Virus record (IMG/VR): IMGVR_UViG_3300027607_000105
Location: 1 to 62,409 of that record
Length of the DNA: 62,409 nt
Source of the DNA: a virus
Taxonomy: Duplodnaviria; Caudoviricetes
Reading direction: 5' to 3' (one strand)
Position numbers and translations under genes: made by a program. Below the pieces are notes generated by a model, which was given only the letters and a program-made list of their open reading frames with translations, had not been told where the DNA came from and made no database searches. This document shows, piece after piece, positions 25,774-50,666 of the stretch. Numbering within the stretch: position 1 is the stretch's first letter; each line of letters begins with the position of its first letter.

Positions 25774-27214
25774 CGCTCTAGACGCGGCTGACGCCGAGGA
25801 AAGCCTAAAGGAGTTCATTAAACAAGGCTGGCATGTGCTGGAGCCGACCCAACGGCCGTTTGTGGATGGTTGGCACATCGGGGCGATTTGCGAGCATCTT
25901 CAGGCGGTAACAGACGGTGAGATCACCCGTCTCCTGATCAACCAGCCGCCGGGCACAATGAAATCAATGCTGGTTCAGGTGTTTTGGCCGGCATGGGAGT
26001 GGGGACCGCTAAATCTGCCGCACATGCGGTATGTGAGCGCATCGTACTCTCAGGCCCTTACTGTGCGGGATAACCGCCGGTGCCGGATCCTGATGGAGTC
26101 GGAATGGTATCAAAAGCATTGGGGCAACAGGTTTAACTTCGCCGGCGACCAGAATTCTAAGATCAAATACGAGAACGACAAAACAGGATTCAGGATCGCG
26201 ACATCGGTTGGAGGCCTGAGCACCGGGGAGCGTGGTGACCGGTTCATCATCGATGACCCGCACAACGTGAAGAAAGGCGATTCAGAGAAGGACAGGGCCG
26301 ATAAAGCGCTGTGGTTTGATGAGTCCGTTACATCACGGACGGTCGACCCCGAAACGTCATCCCGGATCATCATCATGCAAAGGGTGCATGAAAAGGATCT
26401 GACCGGGCACATATTGGCAAAGGATAATGAGTACGAGCACTTGATGCTTCCCATGGAGTTTGAGCCGGAGCGCAAGTGTTACACCGCCATATTCGAGGAT
26501 CCGAGAAAGAACAAAGGCGAGCTTCTATGGCCGCCCCGTTATCCAAAGCATGTTGTCGAGCGCGATAAGCGCGACATGGGGTCCTATGCCACGGCAGGTC
26601 AGTTCCAACAGAGGCCGGCGCCGAGAGGTGGTGGCAAGTTCAAGAGACATTGGTTCGAGATCGTCAAAGCATCACCAGCAGGGGGCCGGTATGTCAGGTC
26701 CTGGGATTTAGCGGCCACAGAAGACGACGGCACGAATGATCCTGATTACACGGCCTGTCTCTTGATGAAGGTCGCGGAGAACGGAATTTTCTACATCGAA
26801 CACGCCGATCGAATGCGCGCCTCATCCAATGTGGTGGAAGAGGCAATCAAGAACACGGCGACACAGGATCAATCCAGGCACGGTTACGACCTGACCATTC
26901 GGCTGAACCAGGATCCAGGACAAGCGGGCAAGGCACAAGCGGAATATCTGATCAGGAAATTGGCAGGCCACACCGTTACGGCCGAACGGGAATCGGGAGA
27001 CAAGGAAGTGAGAGCAAATCCGTTCGCGTCACAAGCCGAGGCCGGGAATGTAAAGCTGGTCGAAGGGGCCTGGAATCAAGAATACCTGGATGAACTAACG
27101 ACATTCCCCCGCGGCTCACATGATGACTGGGTGGATTGTTCCTCAAGTGCGTTCAACTTTTTGACATCTGATGATGCATTTGTTGGCGAAATGCCGTTGG
27201 GCGGCATGATCTAA
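25715..27214 (+). CDS. terL: Terminase large subunit
   Basis: PPGTMKS Walker A, IIDDP Walker B, WDLA and HDDWVD nuclease motifs. Confidence 0.93.
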   Translation: MTSLESSLALALQNPQLGLDALDAADAEESLKEFIKQGWHVLEPTQRPFVDGWHIGAICEHLQAVTDGEITRLLINQPPGTMKSMLVQVFWPAWEWGPLNLPHMRYVSASYSQALTVRDNRRCRILMESEWYQKHWGNRFNFAGDQNSKIKYENDKTGFRIATSVGGLSTGERGDRFIIDDPHNVKKGDSEKDRADKALWFDESVTSRTVDPETSSRIIIMQRVHEKDLTGHILAKDNEYEHLMLPMEFEPERKCYTAIFEDPRKNKGELLWPPRYPKHVVERDKRDMGSYATAGQFQQRPAPRGGGKFKRHWFEIVKASPAGGRYVRSWDLAATEDDGTNDPDYTACLLMKVAENGIFYIEHADRMRASSNVVEEAIKNTATQDQSRHGYDLTIRLNQDPGQAGKAQAEYLIRKLAGHTVTAERESGDKEVRANPFASQAEAGNVKLVEGAWNQEYLDELTTFPRGSHDDWVDCSSSAFNFLTSDDAFVGEMPLGGMI

Positions 27215-28581
27215 TGCCTGTTGATGCGCTGCATCCTCAATACAAGGCCGCGCAGTCGGACTGGAAGCTGATGCGTGACTTCATTGCCGGCGAACAGGCG
27301 GTGAAAGATGCCGGCGAAGAGTACCTTTCAAAGACCCCTGGACAGATTCTCGACAAGAAGAACGGACAGGAACGCTATGAGGCATTTAAAAACGACGCAG
27401 ATTTTCCAGAAAGAGTGGAGCCTGCGATTGATTGGTCCGTAGGGTTCATCCATCAAAAGGACGCCGTGATCGAGCTACCGTCGGCGCTTGATGGCCTCAA
27501 AGACTCGATCACACCAAGCGGCCTAGATATGCACGGTCTGCATCGCAAGACAACGCGGAACGTCCTAAGTGTCGGTAGGATCGGTTTGGCAGTGGACATG
27601 GTTCAAGACGTGCCAAACATCGTGACCTATTCCGCAGAGTCGATTCGGAACTGGAAGGTGGCTAAGGTTGATGGGAAGTTCAAGCCATCGCTTTTGGTGC
27701 TCGCAGAAGGGGCAGCGAGAGAGGTAGATGAGTTTGAAGACGAGGCGGTTGATGCGCTTTTAGTCTACCAAATCGTCAACGGAATCGTTTGGGTCCGCCG
27801 CTTTGAGAAGCCCAAGGACTCGCAGGAGTACAAGGAGCAGGAAGTCCCAGAAAAAGATCAGCCAAGAAAAAAGGGGAAGCGGTTAACCGACATTCCTTTC
27901 ATCTTTGTTGGTTCGTCAAATCTTGATCCTGCACCGGACAAAATCCCGTTTATCGGGCTGGCAAGAAAATGCCGATCGATCTACCGGCTGTCGGCGCGCT
28001 ATGTTCAGTCCCTGTCGTTTTCTGAGCCGACCCACTACGTCACAGGCATGACCGACGCATGGATCAAAGCGGGCAGGGCGCCGAAAACCGTTGGGTCAGG
28101 CACAGTCTGGCATCTGCCATCAGGGGCCGAGGCCGGGATGATTGAATATAACGGCAAAATTATCAGTGAGCAGCGTGAAGCGCTGGACACAGCCAAAGCT
28201 GAGGCTGCTGATCTCGCCGCAAAACCATTTGAGCCCCGCACCGCAAGTGTTGAAAGCGGCGAAGCGAAAAAGGAACGCACCAAGGGCTCGACATCGACAA
28301 TCTTTGAGGTCGCCATGAACACGGCGGCCGGGCTGGAGGCCGCCACAAAGATCGCTGCGGATTGGGCGGGGTCAAATCCGGACGACGTCAAGATCATCCC
28401 GAATAAAGACCTGATCATGCGGACTTTGACCGCTCAAGACATCACGGCTCTGATCGCGGGCTGGCAGGCCGAAGGATACTCCAAGCAGACCATGCACGAG
28501 AATTTCCAACGTGGCGGGTTGTCTGACAGAGACTTTGAAACCGAACAGCAATTGATTGAAGAGGAAGGCCTCGGTTTGTGA
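27214..28581 (+). CDS. Portal protein (DUF4055-like)
   Basis: Follows terL; HPQY...W..MRD, YSAESIRNW, IPFIFVG. Confidence 0.8.
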   Translation: MPVDALHPQYKAAQSDWKLMRDFIAGEQAVKDAGEEYLSKTPGQILDKKNGQERYEAFKNDADFPERVEPAIDWSVGFIHQKDAVIELPSALDGLKDSITPSGLDMHGLHRKTTRNVLSVGRIGLAVDMVQDVPNIVTYSAESIRNWKVAKVDGKFKPSLLVLAEGAAREVDEFEDEAVDALLVYQIVNGIVWVRRFEKPKDSQEYKEQEVPEKDQPRKKGKRLTDIPFIFVGSSNLDPAPDKIPFIGLARKCRSIYRLSARYVQSLSFSEPTHYVTGMTDAWIKAGRAPKTVGSGTVWHLPSGAEAGMIEYNGKIISEQREALDTAKAEAADLAAKPFEPRTASVESGEAKKERTKGSTSTIFEVAMNTAAGLEAATKIAADWAGSNPDDVKIIPNKDLIMRTLTAQDITALIAGWQAEGYSKQTMHENFQRGGLSDRDFETEQQLIEEEGLGL

Positions 28582-28660: not shown

Positions 28661-30595
28661 ATGGCAGATCCGAGATTAGGCGGCCGGACCGTCAATGAGA
28701 TCCTTCAAGACATTTCGATCAGACATGCGATCGGTCTGGAGCGATTGAAACGGTCGGACATCGCCAAGCTTATAAAGCTTTTGGCAAAGGTCGACGCGGA
28801 TCTCCTGGACAAACTGGAAAAGCGACTGAATCGGCTCAGCAAACTTGACGCAACGAACTATGCGATCGGGAAGGTTGGCAAGTCGACAACTGATCGGCTG
28901 GAAAAGCTCCGCGAGATCATTCAAGACATTGAAAAGATCACAATTCAGGAAGGTATGAACTTCTGGAAATCCAACCTCCAGGAGTTGAGCAAGGCTGAAG
29001 CCGCGTTCCAAATCAACGCCCTGAAGTTCACGGTGCCGGTTGATGTGAAGTGGGTCACGCCATCGACCGATCAGCTTCACGCCATCGTCACGGCGAGACC
29101 ATTCCAGGGCAAGCTTCTAAGAGATTACGCAAAGCGGTGGGGCGCCAACAAGGCCCAGCGAGTCGACGAAGCTATAAAAATGGGATTGCTGGAGGGCGAG
29201 ACAATTGACCAGATCATGCGGCGCATCCGTGGAACAAAGGCTCGCAATTTCAAAGACGGCATTTTGGACATTAGTCGAAAGGGTGCCGCTACTATTACTC
29301 GCACTGCTGTCAATCATACGTCGAACCGGGCGCGCGAAAAGGTTTTCGAAGCGAACTCAGATGTCATCAAAGGCGTTCAATGGGTATCGACCCTCGATAG
29401 CCGGACGACAGAGATCTGCATGGCGCGCGACGGCAAGGTCTTCGCTATAAATTCAGGACCAAGACCCCCAGCGCATTACAATTGTTTACCTGGGGATAGT
29501 CTCGTATTGCCCATTGGTGGGATTTCGGCGGCTAGTAAAAGGCGGTTCGAGGGCGATCTCGTCACCATAAAAACAAGATCGGGAAAAATACTCAGGGCGA
29601 CACCAAACCATCCGGTGCTCAGCTCTCGTGGCTGGCTCGGCTCTCAGTTCCTCAAGGTGGGGGACCAGGTCTTGAGCCATATCAATAGTGAGCGGGTGCC
29701 GCCTGGGTTCAAAGATGAGGATCAGAACGTTGAGGCCCCGATTGAGGATGTAATTGCTGCGTTCAGCAAAACGATTGGCGTGGTGCCCATGGAAGTGCCA
29801 ACCACCACCCCAGATTTCCACGGCGACGGAACCGAGAATGAAGTCTGCATTGTATGGTCCAATAGGAGATTGGGCAGCAAAGGTGTATCCAAGGTCGCCA
29901 AACAATTTCTCGAACTGAAGTTCAAGGTTGCTTCTTCGATTAAGGCGAAGGTGGTCAGTAATCGCCTTTTCTCTAAGCGATTGAAAGTCAGGAGTTCTGC
30001 CTGTAGCAGCCTTATTCGCCGCTCGCGTGTTGGACTTCTTCTGCTCTGGCGTCATGCGGTCCATGCGGGCTTGTTGTTGCGCAGATCGATTTCGAAGCAG
30101 GATGTTGTGTTCTTTCAGGATGCGACGGATTGGGGTGTCGGAAATCCCAATGATTTTAGCGACACCCTTAATGCCTATGCCGGATTTGTACAGAGAGATG
30201 AGGTGGTCAGCGTCGACGTCAGTGATTTTAGCGGGCATGTGTATAACCTCGAAACAGAGTCAGGAACATATTTCGCGAACGGAATTATAACCCACAACTG
30301 CCGTTCAATAACAGTTCCAGTGACACACGCCGCGGCCTTCATTGATAAGGAGGCTGACCAAGCCACGCGGTCCAGTATGAATGGACGGGTGCCGGCGGAT
30401 CAAACATATGACGAATGGCTGCGCCGACAACCCAAGGAGGTCCAAGAGGATGCCTTGGGCAAGACAAAGGCGAAACTGTTCCGCGACGGCATGAAGATCG
30501 AGAAGTTTTCCGACCCGAAATCGGGCAGAACCTACACTTTGGATGAATTGAGAGCGACGGATATTCAAGCCTTTAGAGACGCTGGGCTGATGTGA
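28661..30595 (+). CDS. MuF/SPP1 gp7-like minor head protein containing an intein
   Basis: WVSTLDSRTTEICMARDG...PPAHYN|intein|CRS; TYDEWLRRQ; spliced product ~372 aa. Confidence 0.9.
   Translation: MADPRLGGRTVNEILQDISIRHAIGLERLKRSDIAKLIKLLAKVDADLLDKLEKRLNRLSKLDATNYAIGKVGKSTTDRLEKLREIIQDIEKITIQEGMNFWKSNLQELSKAEAAFQINALKFTVPVDVKWVTPSTDQLHAIVTARPFQGKLLRDYAKRWGANKAQRVDEAIKMGLLEGETIDQIMRRIRGTKARNFKDGILDISRKGAATITRTAVNHTSNRAREKVFEANSDVIKGVQWVSTLDSRTTEICMARDGKVFAINSGPRPPAHYNCLPGDSLVLPIGGISAASKRRFEGDLVTIKTRSGKILRATPNHPVLSSRGWLGSQFLKVGDQVLSHINSERVPPGFKDEDQNVEAPIEDVIAAFSKTIGVVPMEVPTTTPDFHGDGTENEVCIVWSNRRLGSKGVSKVAKQFLELKFKVASSIKAKVVSNRLFSKRLKVRSSACSSLIRRSRVGLLLLWRHAVHAGLLLRRSISKQDVVFFQDATDWGVGNPNDFSDTLNAYAGFVQRDEVVSVDVSDFSGHVYNLETESGTYFANGIITHNCRSITVPVTHAAAFIDKEADQATRSSMNGRVPADQTYDEWLRRQPKEVQEDALGKTKAKLFRDGMKIEKFSDPKSGRTYTLDELRATDIQAFRDAGLM
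29483..30298 (+). mobile_element. Intein (272 aa)
   Basis: Block A CLPGDS, block B ATPNHPVL, block F VYNLET, block G NGIITHN/C. Confidence 0.92.
29486..30238 (-). CDS. Vsr/DUF559-like endonuclease with N-terminal HTH, antisense inside the intein
   Basis: HTH LYKSGIGIKGVAKIIGISDTPIRRILK; nuclease SNLELQF...QSPIGPYNADF...VAVEIWGGGWH; GAGGT RBS; TATAAT at 30289-30284. Confidence 0.8.
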   Translation of the reverse strand: MPAKITDVDADHLISLYKSGIGIKGVAKIIGISDTPIRRILKEHNILLRNRSAQQQARMDRMTPEQKKSNTRAANKAATGRTPDFQSLREKAITDHLRLNRRSNLELQFEKLFGDLGYTFAAQSPIGPYNADFILGSVAVEIWGGGWHFHGHHANRFAERSNYILNRGLNVLILIFEPRRHPLTIDMAQDLVPHLEELRAEPATRAEHRMVWCRPEYFSRSCFYGDEIALEPPFTSRRNPTNGQYETIPR

Positions 30596-30607: not shown

Positions 30608-30943
30608 ATGGCTGGGGAAAAATTCACGGTTATCGAAGGCGGGAAAGCCCTGCCTGACAAGGCACCTGACGGCTCCAAGTGGGAGAAGTGGGAGTGTCCC
30701 TTTTGTCTCCACTACGACGGGCTGACAAGTGTTGAGGTCGCCATCACGTATCCTAGGGCCAGAACAGACGGCCGCAGAATTAGCCTTAAGGGCCAGAATA
30801 GAAATTTATTGATCTGCATCCGCTGCACCAAAAAAGGGCGAGAGCTTCTTTATGGAAAGGTCGGCGCCATCGCAGATTATGAGCGCGGTGTGGGCTGGGT
30901 CAGGTTTATTGACATCGAGAACGGCAAAACCGTTCTGAAGTAA
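30608..30943 (+). CDS. Hypothetical Zn-binding protein
   Basis: CPFC...CIRC. Confidence 0.6.
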   Translation: MAGEKFTVIEGGKALPDKAPDGSKWEKWECPFCLHYDGLTSVEVAITYPRARTDGRRISLKGQNRNLLICIRCTKKGRELLYGKVGAIADYERGVGWVRFIDIENGKTVLK

Positions 30944-47332: not shown

Positions 47333-47351
47333 ATGCCTTAAGGGATTTCCA

Positions 47352-50300
47352 ATGGCGTTTTTCATCGACAATAGTTTGGGTGAGAATTGCACCGGTACCG
47401 GCGAGGGCAGCCTGACACTGCTGTCGTCGAAGTCGCTGCATATACGTTTCTCGGAATCCGACCAGGGTTCGATCGGGGATTCAACCTACTACATGCTGAT
47501 TTCTGCCGATCTCCAATGGGAGATTGGTATCGGCACGCTGGATGCCGCGAACTCGCTGACCCGTGACACGGTGCTCGATTCCTCGAGCGGGGACGCCAAG
47601 ATCAACCTTGGCTCCGGTACCCATGCGGTTTACGGCACCATGCCGGCGTCCAAGATGATCTATGTCAAGGGCGACAACACGATCGGCTTTGCCAACAACT
47701 TCCGGAACACAATCATTGTTGCTGACATCGCGGCGATGCAATTGCTCGACGACATCTCTGATGATCCGGTTTTTGTCCGCGACACCACCAATCAGAAGGG
47801 CGGTCTGTTCGTTTTCAATTCATCCGGTGTCGGTGCTGGCGACGGCAAGGAAACCTTCTCGAGCGGCACGACAAGCGGTCTCTGGGAGCGTGTCAGGTGG
47901 CAGGTTCAGATTCCGCGTCTGCCGGATGACACCAACCTTCTTGATGATGTCATCGCGATCGTCAACTCGATCCCGACCATTCGTGTCGGCGCCTATTCCC
48001 ATGAGATCTTCCATGGCCAGGGTTTCTTCAAAGCCACCTTCAAGACCGGCACAGATTTTAAGGCTTTTGAAAACCCACAGAACTATTGGGCAGACGGCGA
48101 CCTGATCATGTTGCTGGGTGATGAGGCCATCGGTGACACGCCGCCCCGGGTTTATCAATACGATATTGACGGCGACCAGACCGAAGATCGATCCAAGATC
48201 TATGAGCCAACCACGGGCAATGGTCGGCTTGTCTGGGTCGAAGACAGCACGATGTCGGTCACGTTTGGTGATGGCGACACGACACCCTCGATCGCCAAGG
48301 GCAAGGTGTTCAGAACCGCCAACGTCAACATTGAGAATCTGGTTGATGCGCGCGAAGGCGATGCGGTCTACATCGTCAGGGGTTCGCAAGACTGCACGAT
48401 CAAAAACAATTCCAATATCATCACGGGCACCGGTACCGACCTGATCTTGAAAGAAACCGGGCCCTATGCCGTGATCGCAATGAAGGTGCCGGGTCTTGCA
48501 AAATGGGTGATCTTTGGCGGTTCCGGAGGCGGGGCCTCGGGGGCATTTATCCCGGATGCGGTTGCAGATTTCGGCTTGGTGTCGGGTGGCGACAAGACTT
48601 CCAATAAGACGGCCTATGAAAACGCGATCGCGTTCTGCATCACCAACAATCTAAAACGTCTGAACTTTCCGGCCGGCACATACGAAATCGGCGCCCTGAC
48701 ATCAACACTGGAAAATCAAGAGGTCATCCATGTTGGCGAAGGTGCCATTGAGTGGGTCGACGATGGCGACAATATAGCAGGTTTCCTGCAGCCAGCGCCG
48801 ATGCACGTCAGCCAGCTGCCCGACATTACCAACACGCTGAACGCGTCTCATCTACGCCGGATTGAAGAGGCGATCCAATCAGGTACGGCCAATGTCGCCT
48901 TTGTTGGCGATTCCAACGGTGTGGATCCAAGCCAGAACGGCGAGCAGTTTAACAGCGCGGGCTTAATCGACAATCTGGGCTTCACCGTGAAACGAGCGGT
49001 TCATGACGCCTATACCCATGACCGCGATGGAAATTCGATCACGCTCAACTTTGAGAACTTCTCGATCGGCGGCTATGGCTGGCAACAACTGAATGATCCC
49101 GGAACAATTATTGCAGTTGGTGCGAGACCTTGGGCGGCGGATCCCGCGGTGTCCTGGTGGACTAATGTTACCAACTTCACCCCCAACCTTCTGATTATTG
49201 CACTTGGCGGCAATGACGACCTGTCGAATCTCGCCGACATTGACGCGATGGTGACCAAGATCAAGGCAATGACGCCGGTCCCGGATGTGGTGCTTGTAAC
49301 GGAACCATTTGTTTCGACGTCATATGCCTATCAAGACGGGTCCGGCCGGGACGCGGCTTACCGCACAGCCATCAAGGTCCGGAACTATATTCGGATGACG
49401 GCCATCGAGAACGGCTGGGGTCTTATCGATGTCCATCGCTGGCAAGAGATTGTGCAACACGGTCGCGATCCTTTGGAAATCTTCTTCCGGCTGCACTCCG
49501 ACAGCGTCGATATGGATGATCTGATCGGTTCGGTCGACCTGTCGAGCGCGACTGCTGGGCTGACGAACTATCCGACGAAGTTTCACGGGAGCGTCGATTA
49601 CCAGTTTGACGTCGACATGAACACCGCAACCGGGTCGCCATGGATTGAATGCAGGTTGGGCGATACCGATGACAAGCTGCTTCTCAAAAACAACGAGGCG
49701 CAGCTCTGGCGGGATGCGAACTCGAGCGCATCGCTGGTCAAGACTGAGACATTTTCGGCAATCACGTCGACACGTAGAATTCGAGTAATCAGGCGCAATG
49801 ATTACGTCTTTGTCGGGCATCGTGCTCCAAGTGCGTCTGAAGCGGAATACGAAACGCTGCTCGAAGAGTTCCATTACAAAGGACTGGAGACCGCGGCATT
49901 TGAGCCGAAGATAGGGGCTGCACCCATCGGGACGCCAAGCGGATCAACGCTGCTGCTGTTCAATATCCAGATGTACTATCCGGTGTTTCAACGGTTCTGC
50001 CCTAGAGTCACGAACGAAGATGTCTGGGGCACGGAGACGCTCAATCCAATCGGCGGGTCTTTTGACTTCTCGCTCTATTCAAAACCCGATGGCGGCGACG
50101 GCGGCGCTCATCCCAGCGGTCGCGGTGTCCGTGAAGTCTATGGGGTCATCAAGAACTATAATTGGCGCCCTGTCATCGCGACGATCCCGGATGTCACGAT
50201 CGCGGCACCATTTGGGACCTGCGGTCTATGGTTGACCGATGGAACAATCTTTCCTGCGGCACCCTCTACTTATAACCCAGGAGCGGTCCTGCCGCTTGAT

Positions 50301-50666
50301 CATGAAGTCTACAATGTCGGGTCCGCGTTTACTTTGGCGTCAAACGAGTTGACAGCAACGGTGGACGGTTATTTCGATTTGGGTCTGTATGTTCTCCACT
50401 ACAAAAACTCCACCAACTCAGCCATCGCGCCGAAGATCGATTCCGGGTCGGGATTTCAAACACTTGGCGAGCATTACGGATTTAACGATTTCCTCGGCTC
50501 GTTGTCGGCGCAAATCAATCTAGGCGCGCTGCCATATCTACCGAAGGCCATGGGTATCCCGATCTACCTAGAGACAGGCGACAAGGTTCGTGTCGAGTCG
50601 GTGGGAGGCGGGCCAGCAGATGTTATCGAATGGGCGCTGTCGCTGTCGCTGCGCGCGTCGGTTTAA
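47352..50666 (+). CDS. Tail fibre/spike 2 with SGNH/GDSL esterase domain
   Basis: N-terminus paralogous to fibre 1; FVGDS, SIGG, LGGND, DGGAHPS. Confidence 0.8.
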   Translation: MAFFIDNSLGENCTGTGEGSLTLLSSKSLHIRFSESDQGSIGDSTYYMLISADLQWEIGIGTLDAANSLTRDTVLDSSSGDAKINLGSGTHAVYGTMPASKMIYVKGDNTIGFANNFRNTIIVADIAAMQLLDDISDDPVFVRDTTNQKGGLFVFNSSGVGAGDGKETFSSGTTSGLWERVRWQVQIPRLPDDTNLLDDVIAIVNSIPTIRVGAYSHEIFHGQGFFKATFKTGTDFKAFENPQNYWADGDLIMLLGDEAIGDTPPRVYQYDIDGDQTEDRSKIYEPTTGNGRLVWVEDSTMSVTFGDGDTTPSIAKGKVFRTANVNIENLVDAREGDAVYIVRGSQDCTIKNNSNIITGTGTDLILKETGPYAVIAMKVPGLAKWVIFGGSGGGASGAFIPDAVADFGLVSGGDKTSNKTAYENAIAFCITNNLKRLNFPAGTYEIGALTSTLENQEVIHVGEGAIEWVDDGDNIAGFLQPAPMHVSQLPDITNTLNASHLRRIEEAIQSGTANVAFVGDSNGVDPSQNGEQFNSAGLIDNLGFTVKRAVHDAYTHDRDGNSITLNFENFSIGGYGWQQLNDPGTIIAVGARPWAADPAVSWWTNVTNFTPNLLIIALGGNDDLSNLADIDAMVTKIKAMTPVPDVVLVTEPFVSTSYAYQDGSGRDAAYRTAIKVRNYIRMTAIENGWGLIDVHRWQEIVQHGRDPLEIFFRLHSDSVDMDDLIGSVDLSSATAGLTNYPTKFHGSVDYQFDVDMNTATGSPWIECRLGDTDDKLLLKNNEAQLWRDANSSASLVKTETFSAITSTRRIRVIRRNDYVFVGHRAPSASEAEYETLLEEFHYKGLETAAFEPKIGAAPIGTPSGSTLLLFNIQMYYPVFQRFCPRVTNEDVWGTETLNPIGGSFDFSLYSKPDGGDGGAHPSGRGVREVYGVIKNYNWRPVIATIPDVTIAAPFGTCGLWLTDGTIFPAAPSTYNPGAVLPLDHEVYNVGSAFTLASNELTATVDGYFDLGLYVLHYKNSTNSAIAPKIDSGSGFQTLGEHYGFNDFLGSLSAQINLGALPYLPKAMGIPIYLETGDKVRVESVGGGPADVIEWALSLSLRASV

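What the first reader, a model, noticed from the sequence alone, without database searches (positions are those of the whole stretch)
29483..30298. Intein whose endonuclease is encoded on the opposite strand, codon-for-codon
Seen: the MuF gene has a contiguous 272-aa intein (CLPGD...TPNH...VYNL...THN/C) at HYN|CRS, with no recognisable in-frame endonuclease between blocks B and F. The antisense strand carries a 250-aa ORF (30238-29486) exactly in codon register. Its ATG is the complement of the His codon in SGH, and its TAA is the complement of intein codon 2. It encodes an HTH followed by SNLE...Q..IGPY.ADF...VAVEIWGGGWH, a Vsr/DUF559-type nuclease pattern. Its RBS (GAGGT) is the complement of the block F codons, and a perfect TATAAT lies in the block G codons. 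Known: inteins normally carry the homing endonuclease in frame, and Vsr-like endonucleases are known as free-standing genes between split inteins. Inference: this is a dual-coding mobile element that expresses its homing nuclease independently of the late host gene, while the sense frame stays open for splicing.
Basis: partly seen in the sequence, partly recalled or inferred. Interest (0 to 1): 0.9.

Follow-up and report, generated by a model that had tools for sequence, protein, structure and literature searches.

The report
Intein with antisense homing-endonuclease gene
A self-splicing protein insert (intein) in a phage head-assembly gene carries a gene for a DNA-cutting enzyme on the opposite DNA strand, read on the same codon triplets; the layout is real and evolutionarily maintained, but a 2025 preprint already describes it.

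Summary
The MuF gene (28661-30595, +) carries a 272-codon intein (29483-30298). A 250-codon ORF (30238-29486, -) lies on the same codon triplets.

The antisense protein is real. It has an HTH plus a Vsr/DUF559/EDxHD-like nuclease, 22 full-length homologues, and a confident model whose best PDB match is I-Bth0305I.

Both frames are kept open in 80 of 80 IMG/VR loci, 13 of 13 bacterial-genome loci and 6 of 6 cultured phages. All sit at the same MuF site (H-x-N|C-R).

- Stop avoidance: 0 of 2203 Leu/Ser codons in 69 distinct nuclease genes would place a stop in the sense frame.
- Selection in the intein's middle: it acts on the antisense frame (pN/pS 0.28 against 0.82).
- Selection over Hint blocks A-B: both frames are constrained.
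- Sense middle: predicted disordered.

Splicing, antisense expression and cleavage remain untested, and no RNA run was available. The claimed promoter is only a -10 hexamer, although that hexamer is conserved.

Novelty is limited. A 2025 preprint (Gosselin, Arsenault, Gogarten) reports antisense VSR-like endonucleases in minor-capsid inteins of actinobacteriophages. This scan also found the same layout earlier on other DNA. I file it as a new member of a known kind.

The parts
28661..30595 (+). MuF-type head-morphogenesis (minor capsid) gene, 644 codons including the intein. It lies in a same-strand late operon, after the ORF 27214-28581.
   Evidence: ORF list. Pfam Phage_Mu_F E 4.5e-12. PHROG 241 head morphogenesis E 3.7e-127.
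28661..29482 (+). N-extein, 274 codons, ending ...PPAHYN.
   Evidence: Alignment with the intein-less MuF proteins of phages Sonora and M6 (402 aa each), which read H-I/F-N|C-R-S without interruption.
29483..30298 (+). Intein, 272 codons. Splicing residues present: Cys1; block B T40-P-N-H43 (29600-29611); blocks F/G GHVYNLETESGTYFANGIITHN (30233-30298); +1 Cys at 30299.
   Evidence: Pfam Intein_splicing 41.7 bits, cut-off 35.8. In 52 aligned inteins C1, T40, H43, P44, N255 and N272 are invariant and H271 nearly so. In the AF2 model residues 1-70 and 236-272 mostly have pLDDT above 90. Best PDB match is the Mtu RecA intein splicing domain 2imz_A, E 3.2e-4, TMt 0.61.
29918..30163 (+). Sense-frame filler (intein residues 146-227). 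It is translated as part of the precursor but predicted disordered, and appears constrained only to contain no stop codon.
   Evidence: pLDDT below 50 for residues 146-227. No Pfam family. Sense pN/pS 0.82 in the middle region.
30299..30595 (+). C-extein (98 codons, starting CRS) plus the stop codon.
29486..30238 (-). Antisense homing-endonuclease gene, 250 codons plus TAA, in exact codon register with the intein (nuclease residue i lies opposite intein residue 253-i).
   Evidence: 22 homologues with E 3.4e-62 to 1.8e-29. 584 tblastn-confirmed IMG/VR stretches. AF2 pLDDT 85.4. pN/pS 0.28.
30077..30232 (-). N-terminal helix-turn-helix DNA-binding module of the nuclease (about residues 3-54). 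Relatives carry one to three copies.
   Evidence: Pfam HTH_7 E 7.6e-4, below cut-off. Profile match to the HTH protein 2lvs_A at E 1.8e-6 and to resolvase HTH chains. Extra HTH repeats appear in the alignment.
29624..29941 (-). Vsr/DUF559/EDxHD-like nuclease core (residues 100-205), with family-invariant Q123, Y129, D132, E141, G145, H148 and R160.
   Evidence: Profile of 47 sequences against PDB: 3hrl_A E 1.6e-6, 3r3p_A (I-Bth0305I) E 0.0023, Vsr about 0.4. Foldseek top hit 3r3p_A, E 9e-3, prob 1.00, TMt 0.63. Invariant columns.
29489..29638 (-). C-terminal beta-rich tail of the nuclease (residues 201-250), encoded opposite Hint blocks A-B (intein residues 3-52). This stretch is doubly constrained.
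   Evidence: Codon-position variability is 0.25-0.31 / 0.05-0.09 / 0.20-0.22 here, so the sense third position is the most variable, which reverses the rest of the gene. pN/pS is 0.475 (nuclease frame) against 0.543 (sense) over residues 158-250. pLDDT is 71-85.
30246..30250 (-). Shine-Dalgarno-like GAGGT, 7 nt before the ATG. It is the complement of block F codons Asn-Leu.
   Evidence: Sequence. An SD-like match of at least 4 nt is present in 27 of 65 distinct relatives and of at least 5 nt in 16.
30284..30289 (-). -10-like hexamer TATAAT, the complement of block G codons Ile-Ile, 45 nt before the ATG. No -35 was found.
   Evidence: Sequence. At the homologous place, 18 of 65 relatives have TATAAT and 55 of 65 have TAnnnT. 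The codon opposite is NTA in 55 of 65, against 22% A at such third positions elsewhere in the same inteins. No two-hexamer promoter was found.

Best explanation
This is a mobile intein in the conserved H-x-N|C-R site of a phage MuF head-morphogenesis gene. Its homing endonuclease is not an in-frame domain. It is a separate gene on the opposite strand, read on the same triplets.

Sense strand: the late MuF mRNA is translated straight through. The two Hint lobes (residues 1 to about 70 and 236-272) fold and splice out the 272-residue insert. The stretch between them is a largely unstructured filler that only has to avoid stop codons.

Antisense strand: the ORF runs from the complement of a block F His codon (ATG) to the complement of intein codon 2 (TAA). 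It makes an HTH plus Vsr-like nuclease. This nuclease most likely cuts intein-less MuF alleles during co-infection, so that repair copies the whole element in.

Shown here:
- both ORFs and their exact register;
- the homology and fold of both proteins;
- maintenance of both frames across relatives, and which frame is under selection in which part.

Inferred, not shown: transcription from a promoter in block G, translation, DNA cleavage specificity, splicing and mobility.
For: Anatomy
- The ORFs and their register are as described.

Sense protein
- Pfam finds MuF plus Intein_splicing above its cut-off.
- The model matches the Hint fold of the Mtu RecA intein.
- The splicing residues are invariant among 52 inteins.
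- Intein-less alleles are uninterrupted at the same site.

Antisense protein
- It has 22 full-length homologues.
- The AF2 model has pLDDT 85.4.
- The best structural match is the I-Bth0305I catalytic domain.
- The profile matches DUF559-like 3hrl_A at E 1.6e-6 and 3r3p_A at E 0.0023.
- The window's copy keeps every family-invariant residue.

Both frames are maintained
- The in-register opposite frame is open across the nuclease match in 80 of 80 IMG/VR loci. The other two opposite frames reach only 0-208 codons.
- The same holds in 13 of 13 bacterial-genome loci from many phyla and in 6 of 6 cultured phages.
- In 69 distinct nuclease genes, 0 of 1133 Leu codons are TTA/CTA and 0 of 1070 Ser codons are TCA. 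In the N-exteins of the same loci the figures are 322 of 1745 and 174 of 1188.

Selection
- In the middle, pN/pS is 0.28 for the nuclease frame and 0.82 for the sense frame. The nuclease frame is lower in 230 of 230 pairs and 14 of 14 disjoint pairs.
- Codon-position variability is 0.215/0.114/0.379 in the nuclease frame, which is the pattern expected of a gene read on that strand.

Conserved architecture (65 distinct inteins)
- The stop is the complement of intein codon 2 in 55 of 65.
- There is an ATG at codon 20 from the intein's C-end in 57 of 65.
- There is a TAnnnT hexamer in block G in 55 of 65.

Precedent
- The same architecture is reported for actinobacteriophage minor-capsid inteins (bioRxiv 10.1101/2025.01.02.630785, sections 8 and 15 read).
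Against: - There is no expression, splicing or cleavage evidence for this or any relative in my calls.
- No sigma-70-type promoter with both hexamers was found.
- The SD motif is missing in 38 of 65 relatives. That includes the whole VYNFET clade, so the translation signals are not universal.
- One of 80 loci (L025) has a stop in the sense frame just before block F. It is 99.7% identical to an intact neighbour, L020, so breakage does occur.
- For the window alone the chance of an open frame is 0.004, not negligible, and another long ORF shows a comparable run.
- In 8 of 69 loci the per-locus chance exceeds 0.2.
- The 230 pairs come largely from a few clades and are not independent.
- The last Asp of the EDxHD motif could not be identified in this family.
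- Distant members (Jerseyvirus, Kagunavirus, Gordonia, Aaphi23) lack His148, so not every member need be an active nuclease.
- I built no phylogeny showing mobility.
Confidence: 0.78

Rival explanations
1. The element is a relic in this particular provirus. The layout is inherited, but the nuclease, the intein's mobility, or both are no longer active here, and the ORF persists only because too little time has passed for decay.
For: - The preprint notes that most VSR-like cases look vertically inherited (section 15).
- Distant relatives have lost His148.
- L025 shows that decay happens.
- I have no close relatives of this window with which to measure recent selection. The best homologue is 44% identical.
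Against: - The window's copy retains all invariant residues of the close family: Q123, Y129, D132, E141, G145, H148, R160.
- It retains the start, the stop, the SD and a perfect -10 hexamer.
- Family-wide purifying selection acts on the nuclease frame.
Confidence: 0.12
2. The antisense protein is real and selected but is not a homing endonuclease. For example, it could be a DNA-binding regulator or a nuclease with another role (defence, counter-defence, packaging) that merely resides in the intein.
For: - Function is inferred from fold and context only.
- The HTH_7-type modules are typical of regulators and recombinases.
- Some members lack the catalytic His.
Against: - In every locus examined the protein is tied to one insertion site of one gene family, across hosts from many phyla: 80 of 80, 13 of 13 and 6 of 6.
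- Only a sample of the 104 cultured-phage records that matched at E <= 1e-5 was examined. All 60 records listed lie under a head-protein or hypothetical feature, or in an unannotated record.
- For 4 of the 4 records taken from that search, the annotated head, minor-head or hypothetical gene under the match is on the other strand.
- The nearest solved relative is a proven homing endonuclease (PMC3239194, passages).
Confidence: 0.07
3. The antisense ORF is a mirror artefact. The real constraint would be on the sense frame (an unrecognised in-frame domain), and the opposite frame is open and looks conserved only as a by-product.
For: - In-register antisense frames are the ones most often open by chance.
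- The sense alignment shows conserved residues in the middle (F94, P106, F112-H-G-D115).
- Sense residues 80-127 are modelled with pLDDT 61-92.
Against: - In the middle the most variable position is the sense FIRST codon position (0.379, against 0.215 for the sense third). Sense pN/pS is 0.82 against 0.28 for the antisense frame, in 230 of 230 pairs.
- Sense residues 146-227 have pLDDT below 50 and no family match.
- The antisense protein has an independent, recognisable nuclease fold.
- The conserved sense FHGD is the complement of the nuclease's invariant VAVE.
Confidence: 0.02
4. It is a 'fractured gene' or split-intein locus of the Dassa 2009 type. MuF would be made as two polypeptides joined in trans, with the middle not translated through.
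For: - Vsr-like endonuclease genes are known between split-intein halves (PMC2677866, passages).
- L025 has a sense stop just before block F.
Against: - The sense frame is uninterrupted in the window.
- It is uninterrupted in 75 of 80 IMG/VR loci over the whole intein. Four more are cut by contig ends and one is broken.
- The nuclease gene is on the opposite strand, unlike the loci described in the Dassa passages I read.
- In L025 no start codon follows the stop before block F.
Confidence: 0.01

Closest known systems
Non-canonical inteins with an anti-sense VSR-like homing endonuclease in actinobacteriophages (Gosselin, Arsenault, Gogarten, bioRxiv 10.1101/2025.01.02.630785). I read the abstract, sections 8 and 15, and passages.
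   Same: - A contiguous intein with a VSR-like endonuclease ORF on the antisense strand.
- Host proteins that include the minor capsid protein (IPR006528).
- An unstructured sense-frame filler.
- A structural or HHpred link to I-Bth0305I (3R3P).
- My nuclease query also hits 7 Gordonia phage records; one was fetched (Angelicage) and lies opposite its head-morphogenesis gene, and another (Fosterous) is annotated MuF-like minor capsid.
   Different: - This window is a marine-metagenome provirus, not an actinobacteriophage. Its MuF N-extein is 37-39% identical to those of Stenotrophomonas and Pseudomonas phages.
[quoted passage not shown] Here the last 93 or so codons of the nuclease overlap Hint blocks A-B.
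- Its main text does not contain the word 'promoter'.
EDxHD / Vsr-like homing endonucleases, prototype I-Bth0305I (Taylor et al. 2011, PMC3239194, passages read; Dassa et al. 2009, PMC2677866, passages read).
   Same: - An N-terminal DNA-binding region followed by a C-terminal Vsr-like nuclease core.
- The best PDB fold match.
- A conserved Asp, Glu and Trp-His, as described for the family.
   Different: - Those genes sit in group I introns or between split-intein halves, not opposite an open intein frame.
- Their DNA-binding motifs are NUMODs, whereas here they are HTH_7-like.
- In sequence this family scores higher against the DUF559-like 3hrl_A than against 3r3p_A.
- The last Asp of EDxHD was not identified.
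Antisense or out-of-frame LAGLIDADG endonucleases in inteins: Ssp DnaX and the Chloroflexus SpoVR-like protein. Gorbalenya 1998 and Gogarten 2002 were not read and are known to me only as cited in the two preprints. For bioRxiv 10.64898/2026.09.14.751524 I read the abstract and section 17.
   Same: - An intein whose endonuclease is read in another frame or on another strand.
- Selection falls on the endonuclease frame, with a relaxed sense frame in the overlap.
   Different: A different nuclease family (LAGLIDADG), different host genes, and cellular rather than phage genomes.
Canonical bifunctional inteins with an in-frame LAGLIDADG or HNH domain (for example the VMA inteins, PMC8966425, passages read).
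   Same: The endonuclease coding sequence occupies the same slot, between the Hint N-lobe and blocks F/G. The presumed life cycle is also the same: homing into empty alleles.
   Different: There, one polypeptide carries both activities, so nuclease expression is tied to the host gene. Here there are two polypeptides from two strands.

Membership tests
Intein (Hint splicing domain, class 1) | N-terminal Cys/Ser nucleophile, block B T-x-x-H, C-terminal His-Asn, and a +1 Cys/Ser/Thr | tested here: met
   The window has C1, T40-P-N-H43, H271-N272 and +1 Cys. Among 52 aligned inteins C1, T40, H43 and N272 are invariant and H271 is nearly invariant.
Intein (Hint splicing domain, class 1) | Hint fold | tested here: met
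   Pfam PF14890 scores 41.7 bits against a cut-off of 35.8. The AF2 model's best PDB match is 2imz_A, the Mtu RecA intein, at E 3.2e-4, prob 1.00.
Intein (Hint splicing domain, class 1) | In-frame insertion in a conserved host site, with uninterrupted alleles existing elsewhere | tested here: met
   Sonora and M6 MuF (402 aa) read H-I/F-N-C-R-S where the window has HYN|intein|CRS.
Intein (Hint splicing domain, class 1) | Protein splicing activity | not testable with these tools
   This needs expression of the precursor and detection of the product of about 372 aa.
EDxHD / Vsr-like homing endonucleases (I-Bth0305I) | Vsr-like nuclease fold | tested here: met
   Foldseek top hit is 3r3p_A at E 9e-3, prob 1.00, TMt 0.63 over 98 columns. 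The profile scores E 0.0023 against 3r3p_A and about 0.4 against Vsr.
EDxHD / Vsr-like homing endonucleases (I-Bth0305I) | Composite EDxHD catalytic residues | tested here: inconclusive
   D132, E141 and W147-H148 are invariant or nearly so, and Q123 is invariant. No conserved final Asp could be assigned; the strand end at 170-178 varies among N, S, D and T. I made no residue-level structural superposition.
EDxHD / Vsr-like homing endonucleases (I-Bth0305I) | Site-specific cleavage of the empty allele next to the insertion site | not testable with these tools
   This needs an in vitro cleavage assay.
DUF559 / PF18741 restriction-endonuclease-like proteins | Match to the family model | tested here: inconclusive
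   The window's protein gave no such Pfam hit at E <= 1. Five of the 22 homologues carry a precomputed PF18741. The family profile matches the 3hrl_A chain, named 'Endonuclease-Like Protein', at E 1.6e-6. That 3hrl_A belongs to DUF559 is recalled, not taken from a call.
Inteins with an anti-sense VSR-like endonuclease (2025 preprint) | A contiguous intein; the endonuclease ORF on the opposite strand in the endonuclease slot; a VSR-like fold; a phage structural or replication host gene | tested here: met
   The preprint lists minor capsid (IPR006528) among the hosts. That IPR006528 corresponds to the MuF/SPP1 gp7 domain is recalled.
Fractured genes (split intein plus free-standing endonuclease, Dassa 2009) | Host gene and intein broken into two ORFs, with the endonuclease gene between them | tested here: not met
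   The sense frame is uninterrupted and the nuclease is on the other strand. Only 1 of 80 relatives (L025) has a sense stop inside the intein.

The most novel reading that the evidence does not exclude
This is an obligately intein-resident endonuclease lineage whose whole expression cassette is written into the conserved Hint codons.

- Promoter: the -10 element is the complement of block G Ile-(Ile/Leu/Val), with a synonymous NTA codon kept in 55 of 65.
- Translation signals: the ribosome-binding site and the ATG are the complement of block F Asn-Leu and His.
- Stop: it is the complement of Leu2.
- Overlap: about 50 codons (intein residues 3-52) serve both a functional Hint N-lobe and the nuclease's C-terminal subdomain.

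This would let the nuclease be made from the opposite strand, independently of the late MuF operon. It would be one of the longest doubly constrained antisense overlaps in phages. The main text of the preprint does not describe these points, as far as I read it.
Probability: 0.45. Interest if true: 0.55.

Novelty: new member of a known kind. Interest (0 to 1): 0.4.

Why it matters
- **Annotation.** The nuclease gene is missed as a gene in all 6 cultured-phage records I opened: five annotate nothing opposite the head gene and one (vB_StyS-sam) only a 133-aa antisense fragment. These include Salmonella Jerseyvirus, Escherichia Kagunavirus Snoke (which annotates the intein only), Gordonia, Pseudomonas and Aggregatibacter/Haemophilus phages. 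At least 584 IMG/VR stretches encode it.
- **Overlapping genes.** The family gives a large natural data set for studying antisense overlapping genes under measurable double constraint.
- **Intein evolution.** It bears on how inteins acquire endonucleases, by invasion of a mini-intein by a free-standing gene. It also bears on how a homing nuclease can be expressed apart from a late structural gene.
- **Tools.** Inteins whose endonuclease slot tolerates roughly 80 to more than 150 residues of arbitrary sequence are of interest for protein-engineering scaffolds.

Tried and rejected
Things tried that led nowhere or were set aside:

- **Single-sequence PDB search of the nuclease.** Nothing significant (best E 0.86). 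Profiles were needed.
- **Promoter scan.** No two-hexamer sigma-70 promoter on either strand. I looked by eye for a -35 at 16-18 nt from the TATAAT and found at most 2 of 6 matches. A TTGAAC lies only 13 nt away, which is too close.
- **Terminator-like hits on the minus strand inside the ORF.** Not pursued.
- **RNA evidence.** No RNA holder was listed. The two runs listed are DNA of one marine-metagenome sample that may be the source.
- **Literature searches.** Searches found nothing on antisense endonucleases in inteins, and nothing relevant. One search gave Dassa 2009 and Taylor 2011, which describe same-strand, split-intein or intron contexts. One search found the two Gogarten-lab preprints.
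- **Free-standing relatives as a control for how often the opposite frame is open by chance.** None turned up among the loci I examined: 80 IMG/VR, 13 genome loci, and the 60 of 104 listed phage records. So this control could not be run. The other 504 IMG/VR stretches and 44 phage records were not examined.
- **Supplementary tables of the 2025 preprint.** They were closed, so I cannot say which of its phage clusters correspond to this family.
- **Rows dropped before counts.**
  - 12 of 81 nuclease genes were exact duplicates.
  - Only 230 of the 2346 possible pairs met 70-97% nucleotide identity with at least 200 shared columns.
  - Nuclease residues 176-200 gave no value, because of gapped columns.
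  - 5 of 80 inteins lacked a boundary: L007, L036, L061 and L068 are cut by contig ends, and L025 has a sense stop.


Full report
**What is there**

The window is a complete 62,409-base provirus record. Its late structural genes lie on the + strand.

The ORF 28661-30595 (+, 644 aa) is a MuF-type head-morphogenesis protein. Pfam gives Phage_Mu_F at E 4.5e-12, and PHROG 241 scores E 3.7e-127. It is interrupted by a 272-codon intein at 29483-30298. The intein reads CLPGDS...T40-P-N-H43...GHVYNLETESGTYFANGIITHN and is followed by Cys. Pfam Intein_splicing scores 41.7 bits against a cut-off of 35.8.

On the minus strand, an ORF of 250 codons (30238-29486) uses exactly the same triplets. Its ATG is the complement of the His252 codon, and its TAA is the complement of the Leu2 codon. 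GAGGT lies 7 nt before the ATG, and TATAAT lies 45 nt before it.

**Is the antisense ORF a gene?**

Yes, on four counts.

- Homologues. It has 22 full-length homologues at 32-44% identity, with E from 3.4e-62 to 1.8e-29. One source names its homologue a very-short-patch-repair endonuclease, and five carry a precomputed PF18741.
- Conserved residues. The alignment has invariant Q123, Y129, D132, V140, E141, G144, G145, H148, G151, H153 and R160. The window's copy has all of them.
- Fold. An AlphaFold2 model built on that alignment is confident (mean pLDDT 85.4). Its best PDB match is the catalytic domain of the homing endonuclease I-Bth0305I (3r3p_A, E 9e-3, prob 1.00, TMt 0.63).
- Profile matches. 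A profile of the nuclease core from 47 sequences matches 3hrl_A at E 1.6e-6, 3r3p_A at E 0.0023 and Vsr at about 0.4. The N-terminus is a resolvase-type HTH, and relatives have one to three copies.

**Is the sense frame an intein with a real filler?**

The model of the 272 residues, built on 52 aligned inteins, has pLDDT mostly above 90 for residues 1-70 and 236-272. It falls below 50 for residues 146-227. The best PDB match is the Mtu RecA intein splicing domain (2imz_A, E 3.2e-4). Nothing between blocks B and F matches a Pfam family.

The intein-less MuF proteins of Stenotrophomonas phage Sonora and Pseudomonas phage M6 are 402 aa long. About 40% of aligned residues are identical (153 and 150 of 384). 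They read H-I/F-N-C-R-S without interruption exactly where the window has HYN|intein|CRS.

**More than chance?**

The window alone is suggestive, not decisive.

- The nuclease's 22 Leu and 13 Ser codons include no TTA, CTA or TCA. Under the window's codon usage that has P = 0.004.
- However, another long ORF (47351-50663) shows a 276-codon run of the same kind.

The comparative data settle it.

The best 80 were kept.
- In 80 of 80, the opposite in-register frame is open across the whole nuclease match, in stretches of 288-1514 codons. The other two opposite frames reach only 0-208 codons.
- All complete cases (75 of 80) are inteins at the same H-x-N|C site, ending HN|C. Four more are cut by contig ends.
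- One locus, L025, has a sense stop just before block F. It is 99.7% identical to the intact L020.
- Replication holds in 13 of 13 loci from bacterial genomes of many phyla, including Pseudomonas, Azospirillum, Competibacter, Chitinophaga, Planctomycetota and Chloroflexota-type MAGs. It also holds in 6 of 6 cultured phages.
- Over 69 distinct nuclease genes (17,326 codons), 0 of 1133 Leu codons are TTA/CTA and 0 of 1070 Ser codons are TCA. In the N-exteins of the same loci the figures are 322 of 1745 and 174 of 1188.
- At 32-44% protein identity, synonymous sites have turned over many times. This is therefore continuing selection against sense-frame stops, not only a filter at the time of arrival.

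**Which frame is selected where?**

I used 230 pairs of 70-97% nucleotide identity.

- Middle of the intein (nuclease residues 1-157, intein residues 96-252). pN/pS is 0.28 in the nuclease frame and 0.82 in the sense frame. The nuclease frame is lower in 230 of 230 pairs and in 14 of 14 disjoint pairs. The most variable codon position is the nuclease's third, which is the sense first (0.379 against 0.215).
- Hint N-lobe overlap (nuclease residues 158-250). The two frames are about equally constrained (0.475 against 0.543).
- Finer profile. The balance tips to the sense frame over intein residues 3-52, with a pos3/pos1 ratio of 0.71-0.80. The active-site stretch 126-150 is nearly frozen at all three positions.

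So the filler is free apart from stop avoidance, the nuclease owns the middle, and about 50 codons serve both proteins. The conserved sense motif FHGD is simply the complement of the nuclease's VAVE. The nuclease's conserved tail ...RYETIPR is the complement of block A.

**Expression signals (65 distinct inteins)**

- The nuclease stop is the complement of intein codon 2 in 55.
- The codon 20 from the intein's C-end is ATG in 57, and GTG in 3 more.
- At the place of the window's TATAAT, 18 have TATAAT and 55 have TAnnnT.
- The block G codon opposite the first hexamer base is NTA (ATA, TTA, GTA or CTA) in 55 of 65. Elsewhere in the same inteins, A makes up 22% of such third positions. A synonymous site kept across four different codons suggests a functional -10 element.

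Against this, no -35 is recognisable and the scan finds no two-hexamer promoter. The SD motif is present in only 27 of 65. Independent expression is therefore plausible but unproven. No RNA run was available.

**Distribution**

- The nuclease query finds 104 cultured-phage records at E <= 1e-5, 81 of them with at least 80% coverage.
- By organism name: 62 Salmonella (the records I opened or saw classified are Jerseyvirus), 14 Pseudomonas, 8 Klebsiella, 7 Gordonia, and others.
- In the six records I opened, the match lies opposite the annotated head, minor-capsid or hypothetical CDS and the nuclease itself is not annotated (one record annotates only a 133-aa antisense fragment). Phage Snoke annotates the intein only.
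- Host genes among ten long sense ORFs include plain MuF, portal-MuF fusions and one with an extra hydrolase domain.
- More distant members (Jerseyvirus, Kagunavirus, Gordonia, Aaphi23) lack His148.

**Comparison with what is known**

- Dassa et al. 2009 (PMC2677866, passages). They described Vsr-like endonuclease genes between split-intein halves and in group I introns, and stated that such nucleases were not known in inteins.
- Taylor et al. 2011 (PMC3239194, passages). They characterised I-Bth0305I.
- Gosselin, Arsenault and Gogarten (bioRxiv 10.1101/2025.01.02.630785; abstract, sections 8 and 15, and passages read). They report 63 non-canonical inteins in actinobacteriophages. These include antisense VSR-like endonucleases, with minor capsid proteins among the hosts, an unstructured sense filler and an HHpred link to 3R3P. 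They cite Gorbalenya 1998 and Gogarten 2002 for antisense LAGLIDADG cases; I did not read those two papers.
- A 2026 preprint (10.64898/2026.09.14.751524; abstract and section 17). It shows the same frame-specific selection logic for the dnaX intein.
- Notes of this scan. They record the same MuF or portal-MuF layout on other genomes at least five times. One of them pointed me to the 2025 preprint, which I then found and read.

The arrangement is therefore known. This window is a further member, from a non-actinobacterial marine provirus.

As far as I could read, my calls add the following to the preprint's main text.

- The breadth across phage groups and host phyla.
- The zero count of stop-generating codons.
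- The two-regime selection map.
- The overlap with Hint blocks A-B, whereas the preprint says such ORFs typically lie outside the splicing domain.
- The conserved start, stop and -10 placement. The word 'promoter' does not occur in its text.

**Verdict**

The mechanism (independent antisense expression, homing, splicing) is inferred. Novelty: a new member of a known kind. Interest is moderate.

Noticed in passing
L025:3650-4747 (minus strand), compared with L020: One IMG/VR relative has a stop codon in the sense (MuF/intein) frame just before block F (...VISL*RTRFSGHVFN...). It is 99.7% identical over 2600 bases to L020, which reads VISIERTRF. This could be a recent inactivation, a sequencing error, or a step towards a split intein. 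No start codon follows the stop.
   Followed up: partly
L082, L083, L087 (Kagunavirus Snoke, Jerseyvirus vB_StyS-sam and BPS11Q3); L084; L086: In these cultured phages the antisense nuclease ORF is intact but lacks the family's His148. Jersey-like and Kaguna-like phages have GGGWAC, Gordonia Angelicage has VHRSPQH, and Aaphi23 has LTAFTGRY. These copies may be catalytically altered or dead although the frame is kept.
   Followed up: partly
window 29720-29863 (intein residues 80-127, + strand): This part of the sense-frame filler is modelled with pLDDT 61-92 (a helix and two strands). It lies opposite the nuclease's active site. This could be a real extension of the Hint domain, or an artefact of conservation mirrored from the other strand.
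   Followed up: no
window 30608-30943 (+): A 111-aa ORF between MuF and the next structural gene has two Cys pairs (CPFC ... CIRC), suggesting a small zinc-ribbon protein inside the head module.
   Followed up: no
window 47351-50663 (+): A 1104-aa ORF contains a 276-codon run without TTA, CTA or TCA, so its in-register antisense frame is open for that length. I used it only as a chance control and did not check whether anything is encoded there.
   Followed up: no
phage records (for example MZ560703.1, MT677934.1, OQ507916.1): Several Salmonella phage records label the intein-containing MuF gene 'NAD+--asparagine ADP-ribosyltransferase'. Others call it head morphogenesis or minor capsid protein, so annotation is inconsistent. 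No record I opened annotates the full antisense gene; vB_StyS-sam annotates a 133-aa fragment on that strand.
   Followed up: no
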